Notes under the pieces: generated by a model
Seen by the model: the letters and a program-made list of their open reading frames with translations, nothing else
The model's database searches: none
Told to the model about the DNA's origin: nothing
Assembly: GCF_024502345.1 (NCBI RefSeq)
Contig: NZ_JALDNN010000001.1
Direction: 5' to 3' (one strand)
DNA: 64,000 bases
DNA from: Escherichia coli
Lineage (GTDB): Bacteria; Pseudomonadota; Gammaproteobacteria; Enterobacterales; Enterobacteriaceae
Shown here: positions 2,278-22,214 of the stretch, piece after piece
Layout of the letters: every line of letters begins with the position of its first letter
Numbering within the stretch: the first letter of the stretch is position 1
Position numbers and translations under genes: made by a program

Positions 2278-2537
2278 GTAAAAATGCAGCGTGATTTTAT
2301 ATGCCTTTGAATGGATTATGCGAAGCGCCTCTAAGGCAGATGAGGAGCAATAGCATGCTGAAGTAGAAGGCTAAATTGTATTGAATCGCTAGCATGTAAT
2401 TTAAGGCAGCTATTTGATTCGAGTCATAAAAGAGCATCTATTTCGGCTAATAAAACCATTGCGAGTGACCTTTTGTCGAAGCATAATTCATCTCGAGCGA
2501 AGTCTTGCTAGTCTTTCATCGGAATGATGACAGGCGC

Positions 2538-2568
2538 AAAAAAACCACCCTGGCAGGTGGTTTTTTTG
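2538..2568. terminator. Bidirectional rho-independent terminator
   Basis: A-run, inverted repeat aaccacc/ggtggtt with loop ctggcag, then T-run (aaaaaaaccaccctggcaggtggttttttt). Confidence 0.6.
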
Positions 2569-2579
2569 TTTGAAGCATA

Positions 2580-2693
2580 CTAAAGAATAATACTTACATG
2601 GATATTACTGACGTTTACTGACAAACCACTTGGACTACCATATGGATAGCCAAAGAGGGCCAGAACGAGAATGCAGTAATAGCACTTCTTCAT
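2580..2693 (-). CDS. Hypothetical small hydrophobic peptide, 37 aa (MKKCYYCILVLALFGYPYGSPSGLSVNVSNIHVSIIL)
   Basis: ATG preceded by SD-like GGAGGAGAT; ORF ends just before the bidirectional terminator at 2538-2568; start overlaps stop of upstream minus-strand ORF 2690-2935 (ATGA); below the 60-aa cutoff of the ORF track. Confidence 0.25.
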   Translation of the reverse strand: MKKCYYCILVLALFGYPYGSPSGLSVNVSNIHVSIIL

Positions 2694-3263
2694 ATCTCCT
2701 CCTGTAAGCAGAGGGCAATTTCCGCCGATATATGCGCTTCTAAGGCGGAGTTACTATTTAGCGAAGTCTTGCCCTGAAATAATGCTCTGTTTAAACGCAA
2801 AGTGATCTGGCATATCACCGAACAGAGAGCCTGAACAACACAACATATAGTATGTCGTTGTTTCTGGTTGCATTTTATGTTGTGTAATACTGGTTTTGCA
2901 TCAAGGATGTTTGAGCTTTTTTTGATATAGCTCAAAGTAAAAAGCAGGGACTACGGATGATAAGGTATTGAAAGCAATGTAAATTTTTTAAAGTTATTGG
3001 TGGCTAAAAAATGCACGGTTTCAATATGGCGGACTTAAATAAGCAATTAAAAAAGTCATAAATATCACTAAAATCATGGTGTTACGTTTTTTGTGGGAGC
3101 TGCGGTGACGCTTAAGTTGATTTGTCATTAAATAAGCCGTGCATGCAACAAGTGAATGTTTTTGCATGCGTCGGGGATGCCCGTTCCAGCTGCTTGCGGT
3201 CAGAGCTGGTGCGGATCCATAGTATCTATGCAACTGCATTAAAACCGACTCATGAAGCGGGCG

Positions 3264-3282
3264 GGCGAGGCGGGGAAAGCAC
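3264..3282. other. cos: P2 cos cohesive-end sequence (19 nt GGCGAGGCGGGGAAAGCAC)
   Basis: Exact string present between gene A and Q, where cos lies in P2; the 19-nt sequence is recalled from P2/186 literature. Confidence 0.6.
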
Positions 3283-3421
3283 TGCGCGCTGGCGGTGGTG
3301 CTGATTTTATTTTTTCAGCGTCTGAGCGCGTCGTGAAGGCGTTTACTTGGCCTGCTGGGCGTTGGTGTGTCTGCGGGGTGTTTTGTGCGGTGGTGAGCGT
3401 GTGAGGGCGTGATGGCGGGGT

Positions 3422-3449
3422 GTAAAAAAGCCGCCCGCAGGCGGCGATG
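3422..3449 (-). terminator. Rho-independent terminator downstream of Q (minus strand)
   Basis: Minus strand reads gccgcctgcgggcggc hairpin followed by a T-run immediately after the Q stop. Confidence 0.55.
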
Positions 3450-3450
3450 T

Positions 3451-11756: not shown

Positions 11757-12186
11757 TGCCGTCACGGTGCTGAAAACTAACCCCGATATGCTGCGGATAT
11801 TCGTGGATAACGGGAGTATTGCCTCCACACTGGCGGCGTCGTTGTCATTCGAAAAGCGTTACACGCTCAATGTGATTGTGACCGACTTTACCGGTGATTT
11901 TGACCTGCTCATCGTGCCGGTGCTGGCGTGGCTGCGGGAAAATCAGCCCGACATCATGACCACCGACGCAGGCCAGAAAAAGGGCTTCACGTTTTATGCA
12001 GACATCAACAATGACAGCAGCTTTGATATCAGCATCAGCCTGATGCTGACCGAGCGCACGCTGGTCAGTGAGGTGGACGGCGCGCTGCATGTGAAGAATA
12101 TCCCGGAACCTCTGCCGCCGGAGCCGGTCACCCGCCCGATGGAGCTGTATATCAATGGCGAACTGGTGAGCAAGTGGGATGAATGA
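11719..12186 (+). CDS. R: P2 gpR tail completion protein (155 aa)
   Basis: 155 aa, position after lysis genes. Confidence 0.85.
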   Translation: MLKPDSLRRALTDAVTVLKTNPDMLRIFVDNGSIASTLAASLSFEKRYTLNVIVTDFTGDFDLLIVPVLAWLRENQPDIMTTDAGQKKGFTFYADINNDSSFDISISLMLTERTLVSEVDGALHVKNIPEPLPPEPVTRPMELYINGELVSKWDE

Positions 12187-12637
12187 GTTTAAGCGTTTTG
12201 AAGACCGGCTGACCGGACTTATTGAATCGCTGTCACCGTCAGGGCGTCGGCGACTGGCGGTAGATATTGCGAAGAAACTGCGCCAGCGCCAGCAGCAGCG
12301 AATTAAATTACAAAAAGCCCCGGATGGTACGCCGTATGTACCGAGAAAAAACCAGCCAGTGCGAAATAAGAAAGGCCGGATAAAGCGGGAAATGTTTGCG
12401 AAATTACGCACAAACCGATTTATGAAAGCAACAGGTAGCGAGAGTGCGGCTGTGGTGGAGTTTGCCAGCGGAGTACAACGAATTGCGAGAGTACATCAAT
12501 TAGGGCTTAGGGATAAGCCGGGGCGTAATAGTGCTGTGGTGGAATATCCTGTTCGTGAGTTATTAGGTTTTGACAAGGAATCTATACAATTGATAGAAAA
12601 GGAGTTATTAGTGATTCTATCGAAAGATGTTATATGA
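12179..12637 (+). CDS. S: P2 gpS tail completion protein (152 aa), 3' part AT-rich/mosaic
   Basis: MNEFKRFEDRLTGLIESLSPSGRRRL N-terminus; composition turns AT-rich in 3' third. Confidence 0.85.
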   Translation: MNEFKRFEDRLTGLIESLSPSGRRRLAVDIAKKLRQRQQQRIKLQKAPDGTPYVPRKNQPVRNKKGRIKREMFAKLRTNRFMKATGSESAAVVEFASGVQRIARVHQLGLRDKPGRNSAVVEYPVRELLGFDKESIQLIEKELLVILSKDVI

Positions 12638-13389
12638 GATGGGTGTTTGTGGATAAAAAATTTTCCATTTTGAGAAAAAGAGTAAAGCATTCTCAAAAGA
12701 AAGTTATGGATTGTATTATTGCTGACCATAATGCTGATGTATGTGTGTTATGCGGGAGTTCTGACGATATTACTCGTGAGCACATTATTCCTCAGTGGGC
12801 CTTTGAGTCAAATGCTGAAAAACTTTTAATTAATAAAAAGAATAATCAGTCAACTCATTACATCAAAGCCACTGTACCAGCATGCAGAGTGTGCAATTCT
12901 GATTTGCTGGGAGCGTTTGAGTATAACCTGAAGAAATTTCTTACGGAAAAGAGGGGCGATGAGTTAACAGATTATGAATATGATTGCATCATATGGTGGT
13001 TGCAATACATGGGCTTTAAGTTGCAATTAATGGATTTACGGACCCGCTTTCTCAGGTATAAAGGGGGGGATTATATCCCTTTCCTTGCAAACTTCCCGGT
13101 TGCAATGTTTTGGGGGAATGTCGATACGACACCGGAGGATGTCTTCAGGATTATAAGAAAATCGCGACGCAATCTGATGTCGAAATGGAAGGATAAAAAA
13201 CATAATTCTTTGATGGTTTTTGAAACATCAAACAAGAGTTTTCATTTCTTTCATAAGGTTGATGAATTTATTTTTATTGAAATGCCTCAGGTTAAGAAGG
13301 CGTTTTTCTTCTTTTTTAATAAAGAATTTGACAGCCATGATTTAGCTCATGAGGAGTGTATGAAGATTATAGAGAAGTGCTACAACTAA
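12634..13389 (+). CDS. Accessory protein with HNH-type nuclease motif (251 aa), inserted between S and V
   Basis: CVLCGSSDDITREHIIPQWAF ... ATVPACRVCNSDL resembles a CxxC...H...N...CxxC HNH core; strongly AT-rich; ATG overlaps S stop (ATGA). Confidence 0.6.
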   Translation: MRWVFVDKKFSILRKRVKHSQKKVMDCIIADHNADVCVLCGSSDDITREHIIPQWAFESNAEKLLINKKNNQSTHYIKATVPACRVCNSDLLGAFEYNLKKFLTEKRGDELTDYEYDCIIWWLQYMGFKLQLMDLRTRFLRYKGGDYIPFLANFPVAMFWGNVDTTPEDVFRIIRKSRRNLMSKWKDKKHNSLMVFETSNKSFHFFHKVDEFIFIEMPQVKKAFFFFFNKEFDSHDLAHEECMKIIEKCYN

Positions 13390-13466
13390 TATTTATTATG
13401 TTGTGTCACGGCTGACAGAGTCCTCCATGATTGCTGCTGGTATCGTCCGGCGGCATCCTTCCCGTC

Positions 13467-14102
13467 ATGAACACTCTCGCAAATATTCAGGAACTCGCGC
13501 GCGCACTGCGCAACATGATCCGCACCGGCATTATCGTCGAAACCGACCTTAACGCCGGTCGCTGCCGTGTGCAGACCGGCGGCATGTGCACCGACTGGCT
13601 TCAGTGGCTGACCCATCGCGCCGGACGTTCGCGCACATGGTGGGCACCTTCCGTGGGGGAACAGGTGCTGATTCTGGCCGTGGGCGGTGAACTCGACACG
13701 GCGTTCGTTCTGCCGGGGATTTATTCCGGCGATAACCCCGCGCCGTCTGCGTCGGCGGATGCCCTGTATATCCGTTTCCCTGACGGGGCGGTGATTGAAT
13801 ATGAACCCGAAACCAGTGCACTCACGGCAAGCGGAATTAAAACGGCCAGCGTGACGGCTTCTGATTCTGTTACTGCCACGGTGCCGGTGGTCATGGTGAA
13901 AGCATCAACCCGCATCACCCTGGACACACCGGAGGTGGTCTGCACCAACAGGCTGATTACCGGCACGCTGGAAGTGCAGAAGGGCGGGACGATGCGCGGC
14001 AACATTGAACACACCGGCGGTGAACTCTCATCAAACGGTAAGGTACTGCATACCCATAAACACCCCGGCGACAGCGGCGGCACAACAGGGGGACCTCTAT
14101 GA
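13467..14102 (+). CDS. V: P2 gpV baseplate spike (211 aa)
   Basis: Start placed at MNTLANIQELARALRNMIRTGII within ORF 13431-14102. Confidence 0.9.
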   Translation: MNTLANIQELARALRNMIRTGIIVETDLNAGRCRVQTGGMCTDWLQWLTHRAGRSRTWWAPSVGEQVLILAVGGELDTAFVLPGIYSGDNPAPSASADALYIRFPDGAVIEYEPETSALTASGIKTASVTASDSVTATVPVVMVKASTRITLDTPEVVCTNRLITGTLEVQKGGTMRGNIEHTGGELSSNGKVLHTHKHPGDSGGTTGGPL

Positions 14103-15892: not shown

Positions 15893-18211
15893 ATGAGCAC
15901 AAAATTCAGAACCGTTATCACCACTGCCGGTGCAGCAAAGCTGGCAGCGGCAACCGCACCGGGAGGGCGGAAGGTCAACATTACCACGATGGCCGTCGGG
16001 GATGGCGGTGGTAAATTGCCTGTCCCGGATGCCGGACAGACCGGGCTTATCCACGAAGTCTGGCGACATGCGCTGAACAAAATCAGCCAGGACAAACGAA
16101 ACAGTAATTATATTATCGCAGAGCTGGTTATTCCGCCGGAGGTGGGCGGTTTCTGGATGCGTGAGCTTGGCCTGTACGATGATGCGGGAACGTTAATTGC
16201 CGTGGCGAACATGGCCGAAAGTTATAAGCCAGCTCTTGCCGAAGGCTCAGGGCGTTCGCAGACCTGCCGCATGGTCATCATCGTCAGCAGTGTGGCCTCA
16301 GTGGAGCTGACCATTGACACTACAACGGTGATGGCAACGCAGGATTACGTTGATGACAAAATTGCAGAGCACGAACAGTCACGACGTCACCCGGACGCCT
16401 CGCTGACCGCAAAAGGTTTTACTCAGTTAAGCAGTGCGACCAACAGCACGTCTGAAACACTGGCCGCAACGCCGAAAGCGGTAAAGGCCGCCTATGACCT
16501 TGCTAACGGGAAATATACTGCGCAGGATGCCACCACGGCGCGAAAAGGCCTTGTTCAGCTCAGTAGTGTGACCAACAGCACGTCTGAAACGCTCGCCGCA
16601 ACGCCGAAAGCGGTAAAGGCAGCATATGACCTTGCTAACGGGAAATACACTGCACAGGACGCCACCACCGCGCGAAAAGGCCTTGTTCAGCTCAGTAGCG
16701 CCACCAACAGCGATTCTGAAACGCTTGCGGCAACACCAAAGGCGGTTAAGACAGCGTATGACCTTGCTAACGGGAAATACACTGCACAGGATGCCACCAC
16801 TGCGCGAAAAGGTCTTGTCCAGCTCAGTAGCGCCACCAACAGTGATTCTGAAACCCTCGCGGCAACGCCAAAAGCAGTGAAGTCTGCCTATGACAATGCT
16901 GAAAAACGTCTTCAGAAAGATCAGAACGGTGCGGATATTCCGGGAAAGGATACCTTTACGAAAAATATCGGTGCCTGTCGTGCTTATAGCGGCGCTTTGA
17001 GCACTGAAGCCGGAAACTGGACAACCGCTCAGTTTATTGAATGGCTGGATTCCCGTGGTGCATTTAATCATCCGTACTGGATGTGCAAAGGCTCCTGGTC
17101 ATATGCAAATAACAAAATCATTACGGATACCGGATGTGGTGATATCCACCTGGCTGGTTGTGTAGTCGAGGTCATGGGAACTAAATCTGCAATCACTATC
17201 CGAGTGACCACGCCGACAACATCAAGCGGTGGCGGTACAACCAGCGCACAATTCACTTACATTAATCATGGGGACGGCTACTCCCCCGGCTGGCGTCGTG
17301 ACTGGAATCGTCAGGGCGACTCAATGACCGGAACGATTAATCAGGATGGCGGAAGCCAGAATGCCTATATGTCTACGGCCTTATGTTCAGGCACCAGAGG
17401 CGGCAAAAAATATCTCAGAAAGTTTCGTGGTGGAGAAGGAGACACTATCTGGCATGAAACAGTGCAGGGCGGGGTAATTCGCTGGGCGACAGGAAACTAT
17501 GACGCTCAGGAAGAATTATCACTCAGCTCCGCTTATGGTCTCCGTTCTAGAGGTGAAATTACATCACTCAGTGCTAATGGTCTGCGCATTGCTTATGGCA
17601 ATTATGGATTCTTTATCAGGAATGATGGTGGCAGCACATATTTAATGCTGACGGCCTCTGGTGATAAATTTGGGACATGGAACGGTTTAAGGCCGCTGAC
17701 TATCAATAACGCTAATGGCGGAGTGTCAATGGGGCATGGCCTGAGTGTTACTGGTGATATTGCCTCAAGTACCAAAGTACGTGCCGGTAGCGGGAAAAAG
17801 TTCACGGTCAGCAGCAGCAATACATCCACGAAGGAAGCCGCATTCAATTTGTGGGGAAACTCAAGTCGTCCTGTGGTGGCTGAATTAGGTGATGATGCAG
17901 GCTGGCATTTTTACAGTCAGAGAAATACAGATAACAGCATCACTTTTGCTGTTAACGGGCAGGTATCACCATCTAACTATAGTAATTTTGATTCACGCTA
18001 TGTCCGGGATATCCGACTTGGTGGTGCTGCCACATACAAACCTGCTAACAATGGCATGACATGGACACATCAGGCACCGTCCGGGTGTGTATATTCCGGC
18101 ATTATTGTTCAGGATACCGGCTCAAACTCTGCCGATAACATTGGTGGCGTATATTACAGACCGGTGCAGAAATACATTAATGGGACTTGGTATAACGTGG
18201 CGCAGGTATAA
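15893..18211 (+). CDS. H: P2 gpH tail fiber protein (772 aa) with internal tandem repeats
   Basis: Conserved N-terminus MSTKFRTVITTAGAAKLAAATAPGG; four 44-aa repeats; variable C-terminal half. Confidence 0.9.
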   Translation: MSTKFRTVITTAGAAKLAAATAPGGRKVNITTMAVGDGGGKLPVPDAGQTGLIHEVWRHALNKISQDKRNSNYIIAELVIPPEVGGFWMRELGLYDDAGTLIAVANMAESYKPALAEGSGRSQTCRMVIIVSSVASVELTIDTTTVMATQDYVDDKIAEHEQSRRHPDASLTAKGFTQLSSATNSTSETLAATPKAVKAAYDLANGKYTAQDATTARKGLVQLSSVTNSTSETLAATPKAVKAAYDLANGKYTAQDATTARKGLVQLSSATNSDSETLAATPKAVKTAYDLANGKYTAQDATTARKGLVQLSSATNSDSETLAATPKAVKSAYDNAEKRLQKDQNGADIPGKDTFTKNIGACRAYSGALSTEAGNWTTAQFIEWLDSRGAFNHPYWMCKGSWSYANNKIITDTGCGDIHLAGCVVEVMGTKSAITIRVTTPTTSSGGGTTSAQFTYINHGDGYSPGWRRDWNRQGDSMTGTINQDGGSQNAYMSTALCSGTRGGKKYLRKFRGGEGDTIWHETVQGGVIRWATGNYDAQEELSLSSAYGLRSRGEITSLSANGLRIAYGNYGFFIRNDGGSTYLMLTASGDKFGTWNGLRPLTINNANGGVSMGHGLSVTGDIASSTKVRAGSGKKFTVSSSNTSTKEAAFNLWGNSSRPVVAELGDDAGWHFYSQRNTDNSITFAVNGQVSPSNYSNFDSRYVRDIRLGGAATYKPANNGMTWTHQAPSGCVYSGIIVQDTGSNSADNIGGVYYRPVQKYINGTWYNVAQV
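16412..16939 (+). repeat. Four tandem 132-bp repeats inside tail fiber gene H
   Basis: Repeated unit KG(L/F)xQLSSxTNSxSETLAATPKAVKxAYDLANGKYTAQDATTAR visible in protein and DNA; fourth copy diverges. Confidence 0.8.
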
Positions 18212-18864: not shown

Positions 18865-19673
18865 TCATCTTTGCAATCTTTTTATGTTTATATAAAGTTC
18901 CTCAATCAGCTCTTCCGAATTTTGACTGTAATGCAATGCCCGATGGCAATTCGGGCATAATGCAACACAATTGCTTATGGTGTCAGCACCAGATAAAGAA
19001 AGAGGTATCACATGATACACTTCGAGATATGGGATATCGCCATTTATTAAGAACGGTGTATTTTCACTACATCTTTCACAAACGCCCTTACTCCCTTGCA
19101 ATACACAAGATTTAACAGCAAGATCCCGAATATAAACCTTCTGAACTCTTTCTAATGTTCCAGTTTTTTATGTCCCTCGGACTCGTTCAAAGGAATTTAT
19201 ATTAGCTTACTGACCATTTTACTTAGAACACTCTCATCATTAGTGGCTCGAAAAGCACTGATGTATCTCCGTAGATGATAGGTTTCCAAAATTCAGCACT
19301 ATTAACACTAGGAACATTTATCATTACTCGCTCAGTTCTGTTCCCTGATGGTGCATCTTTTTTAGCAGTACTGTTCAAATGAGTCTGATACATACACATT
19401 TTTTGGGAAATATCGGAAGGGTAGTTTCCCACTAAAGAAAATTACATCATCAGGATGTATTTTTCTTTCCGCTATAGATGGTATATGTCTTCCGGTTGAT
19501 GATGAGGCCAAATACACAACGCCTTTGTTTACCCCGGAATCAATAAGTCGTCCAATGATATAATCGATGGCAATATTATAATCTTTGTTTCTATGCGCCA
19601 GTCATCAGGGCTCAAATATCAGGCCATATACCCCATCTTCTTCACCTACTAGGCACTCAACGTTCAGTTCCAT
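18865..19673 (-). pseudogene. mcrA-like HNH endonuclease gene (type IV 5-methylcytosine restriction family), disrupted by several frame changes
   Basis: Pieces in three frames: MELNVECLVGEEDGVYGLIFEP; AHRNKDYNIAIDYIIGRLIDSGVNKGVVYLASSSTGRHIPSIAERKIHPDDV; ...SGNRTERVMINVP...; intact C-terminal HNH core CERC...PYLEVYHVIPLSLSGADTISNCVALCPNCHRALH. These resemble McrA as recalled from memory. Confidence 0.6.
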
Positions 19674-19877
19674 ACCATTGTTATCAAGAGATTGCTTTGT
19701 ATTGCGCGGGAAACGTCTAGTTTGAATTAAGGAATTGTGAGGCGGAAGATGGGATTTAGGAATTTGGTTAGAGTTAGCAATGTTAATAAATGGGCCTAAT
19801 TTCACTTTAAATCAAATTCCTAAATATTAAAGAAAGCAAGCTGGCCTACATAAACAGCCAGCCTTGGATAATTCAAT

Positions 19878-21692
19878 TCACTTCTTACATAGAATGCTGG
19901 GTTTTACTCCGTACTCAACACATGCACTCAAAAATGTATTTATAAGCCAGATTAGCTGAACAGTATAAGGTTTGGCTGACTGATTTCTCTTGATGATTTC
20001 CACCTCATCGATTAACATTTTTTTTCTTAAAAATGGAGCAGCTAATATTAACTCCCTACTAGTTTTCGGACTCTCATTAATTTTGTCAAGAGCTAACTCA
20101 ATGTCATTCCTGGAAGTGTCAATTGGTCTAATTCTACTAATCTGCGTTTGTAAATATTTTGAAGACCATTCATTATCATATTTATCAAGGTAAAGTTCTT
20201 TTGGTGAATGTAATCTGCCAATATTTTTTAAAGCTTGACTTATAACTTCATGAAATTTACTGGCGCCATAGCTCTCTTTTTTAATATATTTAGAATGAAT
20301 AAACTTTATGGATGGATTTCCTGTCGTGATATCCAGCACAATATGATCGGCCCACTCATCATTCATATCATCACAAATTACAATAGCATCTTTATTTGAA
20401 TAGATATTCTCCACTCGTCTAAATAGCGATCTCACTGGAAATCTTTTAATATTTTCTGGATAAGATTGTTTGTCATCTTTCTCTTTTTCCGATCTGATTG
20501 TTGAAAAATCAAAGCTATCATCAAAAACGGACAGGAAAATATTCAAATTATTTAACATCGTTTTATCTTCAAAACACGAACGACCATGATAGCAATATTG
20601 GGGGGAATCGAAGGTTATAGTGAATGGCTTAAACTTGTTAATATATTTACTAAGCGACATTAACTGAGAACCATTTTCACTAATCATTATACCATCGAGA
20701 TATTTGGATACTATAGTCACAACCTTAGTATTGAATCTCAGACGACATTTGAATTTGAATCTTAAATTGGTTAGCGTTTCACCATCTAAGAAATATGATG
20801 ATTTAAATCCATTGAAAAATTTGTCAAGTTCAACAGAACTTAACGTCACCGTTCCATGAGGCACATTTTTTGTTAGTGTAAAAGTATGGGACGTGCCACG
20901 CACCATATCATCCAACTCGCTAAGATCTATAAAAATAGCTTTTGGCTTGACTTTTTTTGCTAATAATTCACTCAAAGTAATAGGGGAAGAGAAACCTGCC
21001 ATTAGCTTACTTGACAAAGAGGCTGTGTTAGATAATTCATTTACTGTAGCTATTGCCCATGAGCAGAAATTAAAAAAATCCACTTTTTTATCTTTGTAGC
21101 CTATTCGTGAAGTATTTGGTGTTAAAGTAAATATGTCATTTCCTGTCTTGACTCTAAATGTCCCTGGAATTGAACGTCCAGTCGTGTTAGGAGAAAGAAT
21201 GCCACTTAGATTTTTTGCTTCCACTGTTCTATTTCTTATCACTGAATCTGACAGTGACATATTCCTCATGCTAATTTTTTCATACTCAGGATTCAGCCTT
21301 CCATTAAAATTTGAAAATTTATCAAACTCAAAGTATTCTATGAACCTTTCCAACTCGCTTTCAATTGCATCAACATTTTTCTTCGAAATTATTAAAAAAT
21401 CCTGAACCTCCAAGATCATTAGATACGCATACTTGCTTTCTGAAATGCTAGTGCCTTGTAGAAATGAAGGCTCTTCTAGAACTTTAAAAGACACCAAAGA
21501 GTAAGTTAAATTCCCATTATCTACAACAACTTCAGATTTAATTTTATTTATAAGAAAGACACCATCTTTTATCGAGGATATGCTTCTAAATAGATTTTTT
21601 ATTTTATTTCTAGATAAAGGTTTTTTTATCTTAAAAAATTGTGCATTTTTTGATAAAATTAAATCATTGATACTGAAAATATATTTAGTCAC
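19878..21692 (-). CDS. Orphan AT-rich protein of unknown function (604 aa), prophage hotspot cargo
   Basis: Long uninterrupted ORF in very AT-rich DNA; GTG start 8 nt after AAGGA; no Walker A, no YxDD box, no HNH seen by eye; C-terminal segment AIVICDDMNDEWADHIVLD...IKFIHSKY could be a nuclease-like acidic/basic cluster. Confidence 0.6.
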   Translation of the reverse strand: MTKYIFSINDLILSKNAQFFKIKKPLSRNKIKNLFRSISSIKDGVFLINKIKSEVVVDNGNLTYSLVSFKVLEEPSFLQGTSISESKYAYLMILEVQDFLIISKKNVDAIESELERFIEYFEFDKFSNFNGRLNPEYEKISMRNMSLSDSVIRNRTVEAKNLSGILSPNTTGRSIPGTFRVKTGNDIFTLTPNTSRIGYKDKKVDFFNFCSWAIATVNELSNTASLSSKLMAGFSSPITLSELLAKKVKPKAIFIDLSELDDMVRGTSHTFTLTKNVPHGTVTLSSVELDKFFNGFKSSYFLDGETLTNLRFKFKCRLRFNTKVVTIVSKYLDGIMISENGSQLMSLSKYINKFKPFTITFDSPQYCYHGRSCFEDKTMLNNLNIFLSVFDDSFDFSTIRSEKEKDDKQSYPENIKRFPVRSLFRRVENIYSNKDAIVICDDMNDEWADHIVLDITTGNPSIKFIHSKYIKKESYGASKFHEVISQALKNIGRLHSPKELYLDKYDNEWSSKYLQTQISRIRPIDTSRNDIELALDKINESPKTSRELILAAPFLRKKMLIDEVEIIKRNQSAKPYTVQLIWLINTFLSACVEYGVKPSILCKK

Positions 21693-22214
21693 TTTGATGT
21701 CCTTATAATTAACATTTGATTATTCAAGAACAACTAGACAGCACTTCAGAGAAAATCAAATGGGAAATGGAATAGTTTAGATTCAGAAGATTACATTAAC
21801 ACGTAATATATTAAAAGTAATTATCTAAAACAATATTAATTATTGACTCGCGCAGTATTTAACTGCAAAAATTTGATTTAGGTCGTTTTTTTCTTACAAA
21901 GGCCAAGCCGCCAGGCCCGAAATGCCGCCTCTGCCGGTTAGCGCAATTGGGCTGACGCCCCGGGGCACTGGGGAGCCGAAACTTTAAGAAATCCGGAGAA
22001 TTGACCGTTATTTGAAATAAAAATGCCATTGTAACTTTCGTGTTTAGGCATAGAAAAATTTCCTTTTAACAAAACATAGTAATACTAGTAATGCGCCTTG
22101 TGCGGTGATCAAAATTGCGAACTTCCGCTCCTCGCTCAAAGCAGACTGTCAGATTTGATAGCGTTTTGGCTATGTAAATTGTCAGTCGGAAAATGAGTGA
22201 GTACAAACTAGGAC

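What the first reader, a model, noticed from the sequence alone, without database searches (positions are those of the whole stretch)
12634..13389. 251-aa HNH-motif protein inserted between tail genes S and V, translationally coupled to S
The ATG overlaps the S stop codon (ATGA). The DNA is very AT-rich, and the 3' third of S itself is AT-rich with a changed C-terminus, which points to cassette exchange by recombination inside S. The N-terminal region has a CxxC ... EHIIP ... N ... CxxCN arrangement typical of HNH nucleases. The C-terminal 150 aa are unassignable by eye. In P2 this position holds the small unknown orf30, as I recall.
Basis: partly seen in the sequence, partly recalled or inferred. 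Interest (0 to 1): 0.7.

Follow-up and report, generated by a model that had tools for sequence, protein, structure and literature searches.

The report
HNH nuclease gene in P2 prophage
A real but uncharacterised accessory gene sits just after tail gene S of a P2-like E. coli prophage and encodes a divergent HNH-type nuclease with a second domain of unknown fold; it is probably used in conflicts between mobile elements, but its function is untested.

Summary
The ORF (12634/12649..13389, +) is real, intact and under purifying selection. It lies in an AT-rich island (GC 0.36, against about 0.58 in the flanks) between tail genes S and V of a P2-like prophage.

- **HNH call.** The N-terminal CxxC…EH…N…CxxCN motif is invariant across relatives down to 24% identity. 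Its best profile matches are all HNH/His-Me finger families, but they are weak. Residues ~110-251 match no Pfam family or solved structure.
- **Dispensable.** About 5% of E. coli P2-like prophages carry the gene and most have an empty S-V site. Phage R18C carries it, where it was published as a hypothetical "moron".
- **Position.** In P2-like phages (≥45% identity) it always sits 8-20 nt after S, on the late-operon strand. It is linked to its own AT-rich version of the S 3' end, 76/76 in E. coli.
- **Other cargo.** Every other gene found at this site is on the opposite strand, and an orf30 homologue can co-occur with it.
- **Distant relatives.** They are lone genes in integron cassettes and variable islands.
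- **Reading.** The best reading is a nuclease used in conflicts between mobile elements (defence or exclusion). A homing endonuclease is the main rival. I rate it a new member of a known kind, of moderate interest.

The parts
12179..12637 (+). Tail completion gene S, a mosaic allele. 12179-12257 is P2-like. 12258-~12439 is shared with alleles linked to other cargo. ~12440-12637 is an AT-rich segment found in full only together with the HNH gene.
   Evidence: phrog_26 'tail completion', 2.2e-45. Alignment to P2 breaks at ~12257. Protein mosaic and GC by thirds. Segment 12440-12633 is in 78 E. coli genomes, 76 of them full length, equal to the number with the HNH gene. Segment 12258-12439 is in 96 genomes.
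12634..13389 (+). HNH-motif accessory gene. It is 251 aa from ATG 12634, or 246 aa from the conserved start position, GTG 12649.
   Evidence: ORF. phrog_10503 full length, 4.8e-181, unknown function. 96% identical to R18C ORF16. Present in 76 of 5426 E. coli complete genomes. Start-codon comparison.
12742..12897 (+). HNH (ββα-metal) core with a Cys4 zinc motif, residues 37-88: C37, C40, E49, H50, P53, W55, N70, C84, C87, N88.
   Evidence: Invariant in alignments A1 and A4. The model places strand 46-50 and helix 85-105 as an HNH fold requires. Pfam HNH_5 and PDB 4h9d matches of the core profile.
12961..13386 (+). Helical linker plus C-terminal α/β domain (residues ~110-251) of unknown fold, including a conserved basic patch at residues 175-192.
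12570..12599 (+). Possible internal sigma-70 promoter inside the S 3' end: TTGACA, 18 nt, TGaTAGAAA. This is a weak candidate only.
   Evidence: My own scoring gives 11.0, reached by 5.5% of local shuffles. It is not significant in the other lineages and was not reported by the consensus scan.
13400..13417 (+). Box GTTGTGTCACGGCTGACA at the position of the P2 late-promoter (pV) activator site, starting 10 nt after the HNH stop codon. No terminator precedes it.
   Evidence: All loci carry a (G)TTGT box (GTTGTG in most) at about -68 from the V ATG. In 'empty' loci the box overlaps the S stop. P2 annotates an activator site at the same place. No terminator was found between 13389 and 13467.
13467..14102 (+). 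Baseplate spike gene V. P2-like sequence resumes here.
   Evidence: PHROG baseplate hits. RefSeq annotation. Alignment to P2.

Best explanation
The gene encodes a two-part protein. The N-terminal part is a zinc-stabilised HNH (His-Me finger, HNH_5-like) nuclease core. The rest is a conserved helical and α/β module of unknown fold, which I infer gives target or trigger specificity.

It is a dispensable accessory gene (a 'moron') in the S-V variable locus of P2-like phages, one of the three classical P2 moron regions. It travels as one block with the AT-rich 3' end of S. The block moves between P2-like genomes by homologous recombination within S and near the pV promoter.

The most likely role is a DNA nuclease used in conflicts between mobile elements. 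It would cut incoming or co-resident foreign DNA (competing phages, possibly satellites) while sparing its own genome, for example by recognising a DNA modification or structure.

Shown: gene reality, conservation of the motif, dispensability, linkage to S, family distribution. Inferred: nuclease activity, target, timing of expression, protective effect.
For: - **Real and conserved.**
- **HNH core.** The CxxC/EH/N/CxxCN residues are invariant. HNH_5 matches 26 of 40 cores at E<=0.1, best 1.7e-5. The best PDB match is 4h9d, E=0.013. PHROG HNH scores 0.0039. The other weak Pfam hit, Endonuclease_1, is also a His-Me finger family (PMC5714182).
- **Dispensable.** In an evenly spaced sample of 60 of 1596 E. 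coli records with R-S…V, about 62% have an empty S-V site, about 23% have orf30-like cargo and 5% have this gene. P2 lacks it. The viable phage R18C carries it, where it is described as a moron (PMC6823313).
- **A variable cargo site.** In other genomes the same site holds a P-loop NTPase (PADLOC candidate PDC-S59, 2.8e-31), a PCRF-domain protein, a phrog_12680 protein and orf30.
- **Composition.** The island matches the two recognised defence hotspots of this prophage. The TO region has GC 0.39. The Z/fun region has GC 0.33 and carries PADLOC candidate PDC-S71, 1e-218.
- **Distant relatives are lone genes in variable, conflict-type contexts.**
  - A Vibrio integron cassette between attC repeats (L083), and a locus 158 nt from an integron integrase (L082).
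  - A type IV restriction enzyme as neighbour (L076, 4.9e-65) and a ProA/Hhe-like helicase (L080).
  - Cap2/JAB genes (L010), a viperin-like radical SAM gene (L017) and a type II methyltransferase in convergent orientation (L067).
  - In a Pfam scan of 149 nearest-neighbour ORFs, the top families include Mrr_cat, NA-iREase1, AAA_16, AAA_21 and integrases.
  - No conserved partner gene was found.
- **Integron precedent.** Integron cassettes are reported reservoirs of single-gene defence systems, including HNH-like ones (preprint 10.1101/2024.07.02.601686). HNH_5 is reported as abundant in cassettes (PMC7370490).
Against: - There is no significant match to any PADLOC model or NCBIfam model. The defence role rests on association only.
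- Many neighbours of distant relatives are housekeeping genes, so the enrichment is modest and was not tested statistically.
- The gene is on the late-operon strand, 12 nt or less from S, with no room for its own promoter and no terminator. Every other cargo gene at this site is antisense, as expected for genes expressed in the lysogen. A P2 prophage keeps its late operons silent, so a classical lysogen-expressed defence needs a promoter inside S. Only a weak, non-conserved candidate exists.
- The fixed position after S across phages whose flanking R proteins are only 54-80% identical to the window's is unusual for freely shuffling defence cargo.
- A lone nuclease without a partner needs a way to avoid cutting its own genome, and none is evident.
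Confidence: 0.45

Rival explanations
1. It is a freestanding HNH homing endonuclease. Expressed late with S, it cuts S-V alleles of co-infecting or resident P2-like genomes that lack it. Repair from the donor copies the gene together with the adjacent S 3' segment, whose divergent sequence makes the donor immune to cutting.
For: - Presence/absence polymorphism at one exact site between two conserved essential genes, with the empty site the majority.
- Always the same strand and position in 48 of 51 viral loci, across diverged P2-like backbones.
- Complete linkage to a private S 3' allele, 76/76, with variable breakpoints further upstream.
- The S3'+HNH block is less diverse (pairwise difference 0.014 and 0.021) than the flanks (0.028-0.036). 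Its distances correlate with each other (r=0.46) but not with R, V or J (r<=0.16).
- Late-operon placement with no need for lysogenic expression fits. So do the AT-richness and the architecture of a nuclease plus an unknown binding module.
- Rare truncated or frameshifted copies exist.
Against: - No similarity to known homing-endonuclease families or their DNA-binding modules.
- Full-length relatives, with the C-terminal domain conserved at 30-42% identity, are lone genes in integron cassettes and chromosomal islands of Vibrio, Shewanella, Bacteroidota and others, with no S or V nearby. A site-specific homing enzyme would not be expected to keep its recognition domain across unrelated sites.
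- Linkage and low diversity are equally explained by ordinary cassette recombination.
- P2 prophages are not inducible, so co-replication with a target is infrequent (established P2 biology).
Confidence: 0.22
2. It is a lytic-cycle nuclease co-expressed with S from the late O operon. It would work for the phage's own benefit, for example by degrading host DNA or competitor or satellite (P4) DNA late in infection, or after trans-activation of the prophage late operons by an incoming P2-like phage or P4.
For: - Same strand as S, at most 12-20 nt from it, with no terminator before or after. In all lineages it reads as the last gene of the O operon.
- It co-occurs with antisense cargo at the same site (L053, L019), so it occupies a different 'slot' from lysogen-expressed morons.
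- P2 late promoters of a prophage are trans-activated by Ogr or P4 delta (established P2/P4 biology).
Against: - Most P2-like phages do without it.
- Relatives in integrons and bacterial chromosomes have no late operon.
- Nothing links it to P4.
Confidence: 0.18
3. It is the nuclease half of a restriction-type system, either a modification-dependent (type IV, McrA-like) enzyme or a type II enzyme whose methyltransferase is elsewhere.
For: - A single-protein Cys4-HNH plus an extra domain resembles the architecture of McrA, which is encoded by prophage e14 (from my own knowledge).
- One relative lies convergent with a D12-class type II methyltransferase (L067). Another lies next to a type IV enzyme (L076).
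Against: - No methyltransferase is conserved next to the family.
- No similarity to McrA or to known modified-base reader domains.
- This overlaps the best explanation and is not a true alternative.
Confidence: 0.1
4. It is a virion or assembly accessory protein that works with S in tail completion, or a non-catalytic zinc-finger DNA-binding protein.
For: - Tight coupling to S.
- S alleles linked to HNH share a distinct, longer C-terminus ('IQLIE[KR]ELL…') across lineages.
Against: - No similarity to any tail or baseplate family.
- Absent from most P2-like phages, including P2.
- All catalytic-type residues are invariant.
- Relatives occur outside phages.
Confidence: 0.04

Closest known systems
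ORF16 of bacteriophage R18C (QDP43509; MN016939)
   Same: It is the same gene (96% aa, 96.8% nt), in the same position between S and V of a viable P2-like phage. It was published as a moron of unknown function (PMC6823313).
   Different: That paper found no motif by PSI-BLAST. The HNH core, the family distribution and the linkage to S were not described there.
orf30 of phage P2 (NP_046770; phrog_2407)
   Same: It occupies the same S-V moron locus, is AT-rich and is non-essential.
   Different: It is an unrelated protein (261 aa) on the opposite strand, lying between a terminator after S and the pV activator site. An orf30 homologue co-occurs with the HNH gene in L053.
Pfam HNH_5 (PF14279), group 1 and group 8 of the His-Me finger classification (PMC5714182); closest solved structure PDB 4h9d, deposited as 'HNH endonuclease'
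   Same: The layout is the same: CxxC…[DE]H…N…CxxCN. These are the best profile matches.
   Different: Matches are marginal. 4h9d is a 112-aa single domain, whereas this protein carries ~150 further residues of unknown fold.
McrA of prophage e14 (type IV HNH restriction enzyme)
   Same: It is a prophage-borne single-protein HNH nuclease with a Cys4 zinc site and an extra specificity domain. This resemblance is from my own knowledge and was not tested.
   Different: In McrA the HNH domain is C-terminal. No sequence or fold similarity was detected beyond the motif, and modification dependence is untested here.
Sirona and Nemetona, HNH-like single-gene defence cassettes of the Vibrio cholerae chromosomal integron (preprint 10.1101/2024.07.02.601686)
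   Same: They are small, single-gene, HNH-related proteins in integron cassettes. This family also has Vibrio cassette members (L083).
   Different: They are described as related to a type II enzyme domain and to lambda NinG, which this family does not hit.
Freestanding HNH homing endonucleases of phages (T4 MobA-E, I-HmuI type)
   Same: An AT-rich gene sits between conserved genes, is present in some genomes and absent in others, and is linked to polymorphism in the flanking gene.
   Different: There is no homology to those families or their DNA-binding modules. The family also occurs outside phages.

Membership tests
HNH / His-Me finger (ββα-metal) nucleases | Catalytic His at the end of strand β1, preceded by an acidic residue | tested here: met
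   E49-H50 is invariant in 27 sequences of 24-96% identity. The model has a strand at 46-50.
HNH / His-Me finger (ββα-metal) nucleases | Central Asn, and a metal-ligand Asn or His on the following α-helix | tested here: met
   N70 and N88 are invariant. N88 opens helix 85-105. N70 lies in a low-confidence loop (residues 61-73, pLDDT <50).
HNH / His-Me finger (ββα-metal) nucleases | Two CxxC pairs flanking the core (the structural zinc site of the Cys4 subclass) | tested here: met
   C37, C40, C84 and C87 are invariant. They sit in the same register as 4h9d.
HNH / His-Me finger (ββα-metal) nucleases | Significant profile match to an HNH family | tested here: inconclusive
   The query scores i-E 0.42 (full length) and 0.058 (core alone) against HNH_5. 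None of 27 full-length members reaches <=0.001. Of 40 core-only relatives, 26 reach <=0.1 and 2 reach <=0.001, best 1.7e-5. PDB 4h9d scores E=0.013.
HNH / His-Me finger (ββα-metal) nucleases | Metal-dependent nuclease activity | not testable with these tools
   This needs purified protein.
P2 'moron' (accessory cargo of the orf30 / S-V region) | Lies in the S-V variable region, has deviant base composition, and is absent from most relatives | tested here: met
   The region is named as one of three moron regions in PMC6823313.
P2 'moron' (accessory cargo of the orf30 / S-V region) | Its own promoter and terminator, with expression from the prophage | tested here: inconclusive
   No terminator was found. 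Only one weak promoter-like site lies inside S, reached by 5.5% of shuffles and not conserved. Expression cannot be tested here.
Known anti-phage defence systems (PADLOC-DB v2) | Match to a model of a known or candidate system | tested here: not met
   The only hit is PDC-M01B at E=0.022. One distant relative (P0167) hits PDC-M01B at 9.7e-6.
Known anti-phage defence systems (PADLOC-DB v2) | Enrichment next to defence genes | tested here: inconclusive
   Some neighbours are defence-type or mobile-element genes and many are housekeeping genes. No statistical test was possible.
Freestanding homing endonuclease | Presence/absence polymorphism at one site between conserved genes, with linked flanking polymorphism | tested here: met
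Freestanding homing endonuclease | Homology to a known homing-endonuclease family or DNA-binding module, with the family confined to its homing site | tested here: not met
   No such hits were found. Relatives occur in integrons and chromosomal islands with no S or V nearby.
Freestanding homing endonuclease | Cleavage of the allele that lacks the gene, and super-Mendelian inheritance | not testable with these tools
   This needs crosses and cleavage assays.
Packaging-associated phage HNH (HK97 gp74 type) | Small (~100-120 aa) HNH protein encoded next to the terminase genes | tested here: not met
   The protein is 246-251 aa and lies between S and V, about 3.5 kb from M and more than 6 kb from P. 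One distant relative (P0048) does sit next to a small terminase gene.

The most novel reading that the evidence does not exclude
The nuclease is deliberately wired into the Ogr/delta-dependent late O operon. A silent prophage would then make it only when an incoming P2-like phage or a P4-like satellite trans-activates the late promoters. That would make it a trans-activation-triggered weapon of the helper phage against satellites or rival P2-like phages. The co-inherited S 3' segment would serve as its expression or immunity context.
Probability: 0.07. Interest if true: 0.8.

Novelty: new member of a known kind. Interest (0 to 1): 0.42.

Why it matters
Surveys of defence hotspots in P2-like phages cover the old/tin and Z/fun loci and, in one of the three, a tail-to-cI locus. 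None of the three papers I searched mentions orf30 or the baseplate/V side of the S-V region.

This work shows that the S-V site in E. coli holds at least five alternative cargo genes:
- this HNH protein;
- orf30;
- a phrog_12680 protein;
- a P-loop NTPase matching PADLOC candidate PDC-S59;
- a PCRF-domain protein.

All are cheap to test. The HNH family is broad (882 representative proteins at E<=0.001) and lacks any solved or annotated relative for two thirds of its length. It recurs in integron cassettes. A positive phenotype would therefore define a new single-gene nuclease system. A homing result would give the first homing endonuclease described in P2-like phages, as far as I know.

Tried and rejected
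- **Sequence search of PDB.** The full-length profiles gave nothing significant.
- **Conserved partner gene.** None was found among ~70 distant loci.
- **Promoter for lysogenic expression.** The consensus scan found none upstream. My own scoring found one weak site, not conserved.
- **Link to the integron defence genes Sirona and Nemetona.** The names and sequences are absent from the held supplement, and a literature search found nothing more.
- **Tail or assembly role.** Rejected: no homology, and the gene is absent from most P2-like phages.
- **Packaging HNH.** Rejected for the window on position and size.
- **ATGA overlap as a family feature.** Rejected.
Full report
**Observation**

The window holds a P2-like prophage, running from gene A at position 1 to ogr at about 29 kb, next to yegQ.
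- ORF 12634..13389 (+) is present. Its ATG overlaps the S stop as ATGA at 12634-12637.
- GC drops from about 0.58 to 0.28-0.43 between ~12300 and ~13400. The CDS has GC 0.364, against 0.56-0.60 for R, V, W and J.
- This is one of three AT-rich islands in the prophage. The others are the old/tin region (GC 0.39) and the Z/fun region (GC 0.33).

**The start codon is uncertain**

RefSeq and the R18C record start the gene 15 nt downstream, at GTG 12649, giving MDKKF…. In every other lineage the homologous M[DE]KK start is an ATG, 8-20 nt after the S stop. The ATGA overlap is therefore peculiar to the E. coli clade. What is conserved is a very short S-to-gene spacer.

**The gene is real**
- It has a full-length match to phrog_10503 (unknown function, 4.8e-181).
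- It is 96% identical to ORF16 of the viable phage R18C.
- It is present in 76 of 5426 complete E. coli genomes, always next to S.
- It has about 45 clusters of relatives in 5.8 billion proteins, from Escherichia, Klebsiella, Enterobacter, Yersinia, Kosakonia, Erwinia and Citrobacter.
- All 14 distinct close copies examined are intact, with about 13 synonymous to 10 non-synonymous codon differences, a rough dN/dS of 0.25. A few truncated or frameshifted copies exist elsewhere.

**The protein**
- Residues C37, C40, E49, H50, P53, W55, N70, C84, C87 and N88 are invariant across 27 sequences down to 24% identity.
- The AlphaFold model (pLDDT 79, pTM 0.82) puts E49-H50 on a strand and C87-N88 at the start of a long helix, as an HNH ββα-metal fold requires.
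- The query has no significant Pfam hit. The best are Endonuclease_1 at 0.014 and HNH_5 at 0.42, and both are His-Me finger families (PMC5714182).
- A profile search of 1.84 billion representative proteins found 882 relatives at E<=0.001. Of these, 34 reach E<=1e-30; the top-scoring ones are full length and several are fragments. A large set of 300-360-aa proteins shares residues ~25-135.
- Taking only the core of 40 relatives, 26 hit HNH_5 at E<=0.1 and 2 at E<=0.001, best 1.7e-5. The best PDB match is the HNH endonuclease 4h9d, E=0.013, aligned over both motif halves.
- I accept the HNH assignment at about 85% confidence.
- The protein is basic (pI 8.9), with a conserved K/R patch at residues 175-192.

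**The locus**
- In P2, S is followed by a terminator, then orf30 (261 aa, minus strand, non-essential), then the pV activator site, then V.
- The R18C paper names this as one of three moron regions of P2-like phages. It lists the present gene as a hypothetical moron with no detectable motif (PMC6823313).
- Three recent hotspot papers do not mention orf30 or the baseplate/V side of this region.
- 1593 E. coli genomes carry R-S…V. An evenly spaced sample of 60 records shows about 62% with an empty S-V site, about 23% with orf30-like cargo and 5% with this gene. The rest carry rarer cargo:
  - a 247-aa phrog_12680 protein;
  - a 414-aa P-loop NTPase matching PADLOC candidate PDC-S59 (2.8e-31);
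  - a PCRF-domain protein.
- Every one of these other genes is on the minus strand. Only the HNH gene is on the late-operon strand and abuts S.
- In L053 the order is S, HNH (+), an orf30 homologue (−), V. In L019 an antisense membrane-protein gene follows HNH. The HNH gene is therefore not an allele of orf30. It occupies a separate slot attached to S.
- No terminator lies between S and the gene or after it. A GTTGTG box, at the position of the P2 pV activator site, starts 10 nt after the HNH stop. In empty loci it overlaps the S stop.

**Cassette structure**
- Identity to P2 breaks at ~12257 (S codon ~27) and resumes at the V ATG.
- S is a three-part mosaic:
  - residues 1-27 are common to all alleles;
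  - residues 27-90 are shared (95%) with the allele linked to the P-loop cargo;
  - the last third is private to HNH-bearing phages, at 39-49% identity to other alleles.
- In E. coli the segment 12440-12633 occurs full length in exactly 76 genomes, the number that carry the gene. Two further genomes have a partial match, and the one examined (strain 1500, a PCRF-domain cargo) ends at ~12572. The segment 12258-12439 occurs in 96 genomes.
- HNH-linked S alleles from phages whose HNH proteins are only 55-69% identical to the window's also have a low-GC last third (0.41-0.43). They share a longer '…IQLIE[KR]ELL…' C-terminus.
- Among 13 E. coli-type loci the S3'+HNH block is less diverse (0.014 and 0.021) than R, V and J (0.028-0.036). 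Its distances correlate internally (r=0.46) but not with the flanks (r<=0.16).

**Family context**
- All 48 viral-contig relatives with >=45% identity lie in the order R-S-gene-V-W. One 35%-identical relative is also directly after an S gene.
- Relatives at 30-42% identity occur in Vibrio, Shewanella, Colwellia, Halomonas, Acinetobacter, many Bacteroidota and Gracilibacteria. None has S or V nearby, and there is no conserved partner gene.
- Their contexts include:
  - a Vibrio integron cassette bounded by attC repeats;
  - an integron integrase 158 nt away;
  - a type IV restriction enzyme and a ProA/Hhe-like helicase;
  - Cap2/JAB genes;
  - a viperin-like radical SAM gene next to a small terminase gene;
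  - a type II methyltransferase in convergent orientation.
- A Pfam scan of 149 nearest-neighbour ORFs put GNAT acetyltransferases, AAA_16, integrases, Mrr_cat, NA-iREase1 and AAA_21 among the top families.
- Several neighbours are plain housekeeping genes. The association with conflict genes is suggestive, not proven.
- Integron cassettes are reported to encode single-gene defence systems, including two HNH-like ones. HNH_5 is reported as common in cassettes. I could not test homology to those two systems.

**Interpretation**

Shown:
- It is a conserved, dispensable accessory gene.
- Its protein has an HNH-type core and an unknown second module.
- It is inherited as a block with the S 3' end, in a variable cargo site.

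Inferred:
- The most likely role (confidence about 0.45) is a nuclease used in conflicts between mobile elements. Self-sparing would be achieved by the unknown domain, possibly in the manner of a modification-dependent enzyme.
- The main difficulty is expression. The gene reads as the last gene of the silent late O operon, and only one weak, non-conserved promoter-like site lies inside S.
- That difficulty, the fixed position and the private flanking allele fit a freestanding homing endonuclease (confidence about 0.22). The family's lone-gene occurrence in integrons and chromosomes, and the lack of similarity to any homing family, argue against it.
- A late-expressed nuclease acting for the phage, possibly against satellites, comes third (about 0.18).
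- A structural role is very unlikely.

**Verdict**

This is a new, uncharacterised member of a known kind, a prophage accessory HNH nuclease. It is of moderate interest, mainly because it points to a neglected P2 cargo site with several testable candidates.

Noticed in passing
window 19878-21692 (- strand), within AT-rich island ~19200-22200: The Z/fun hotspot between tail genes G and FI carries a 604-aa gene. It matches PADLOC defence candidate PDC-S71 over its full length (E=1.1e-218), in DNA of GC 0.32-0.35.
   Followed up: partly
window 2278-3450: The old/tin (TO) region between gene A and portal gene Q is short and AT-rich (GC 0.39). It holds only small ORFs of 81 and 72 aa, with no PADLOC hit. 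In strain ECC-1470 the same region holds a DUF7380 protein.
   Followed up: partly
window 15893-18211: Tail fibre gene H (772 aa) contains four tandem copies of a ~43-aa unit (…ATNS[TD]SETLAATPKAVK[AST]AYDLANGKYTAQDATTARKGLVQLSS…). It is 189 bp longer than the fibre gene annotated at the same position in ECC-1470 (2130 bp).
   Followed up: no
L012 1311-2555 (-); L147 2770-4221 (-); L014 1427-2170 (-): Other E. coli P2-like prophages carry different antisense cargo at the same S-V site. These are a P-loop NTPase (PDC-S59, 2.8e-31), a PCRF-domain protein (483 aa) and a 247-aa phrog_12680 protein. The site behaves as an overlooked fourth variable hotspot.
   Followed up: partly
L083 4333-5315: A 39%-identical relative is a complete cassette of a Vibrio chromosomal integron, bounded by attC-type repeats that recur 11 times in the 8.9-kb contig.
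   Followed up: partly
L067 606-2483: In a viral contig, a 39%-identical relative lies convergent with a D12-class type II DNA methyltransferase (PADLOC 7.9e-100). This may be a restriction-modification pair.
   Followed up: no
L056 4785-5828 and L073 (same arrangement): Some P2-like phages carry an extra 347-aa gene on the + strand between the HNH gene and V. It has no PADLOC or PHROG hit.
   Followed up: no
PMC6823313 (R18C paper): The paper calls P2 ORF30 'short, 261-bp-long'. The P2 record shows 786 bp, or 261 aa.
   Followed up: yes
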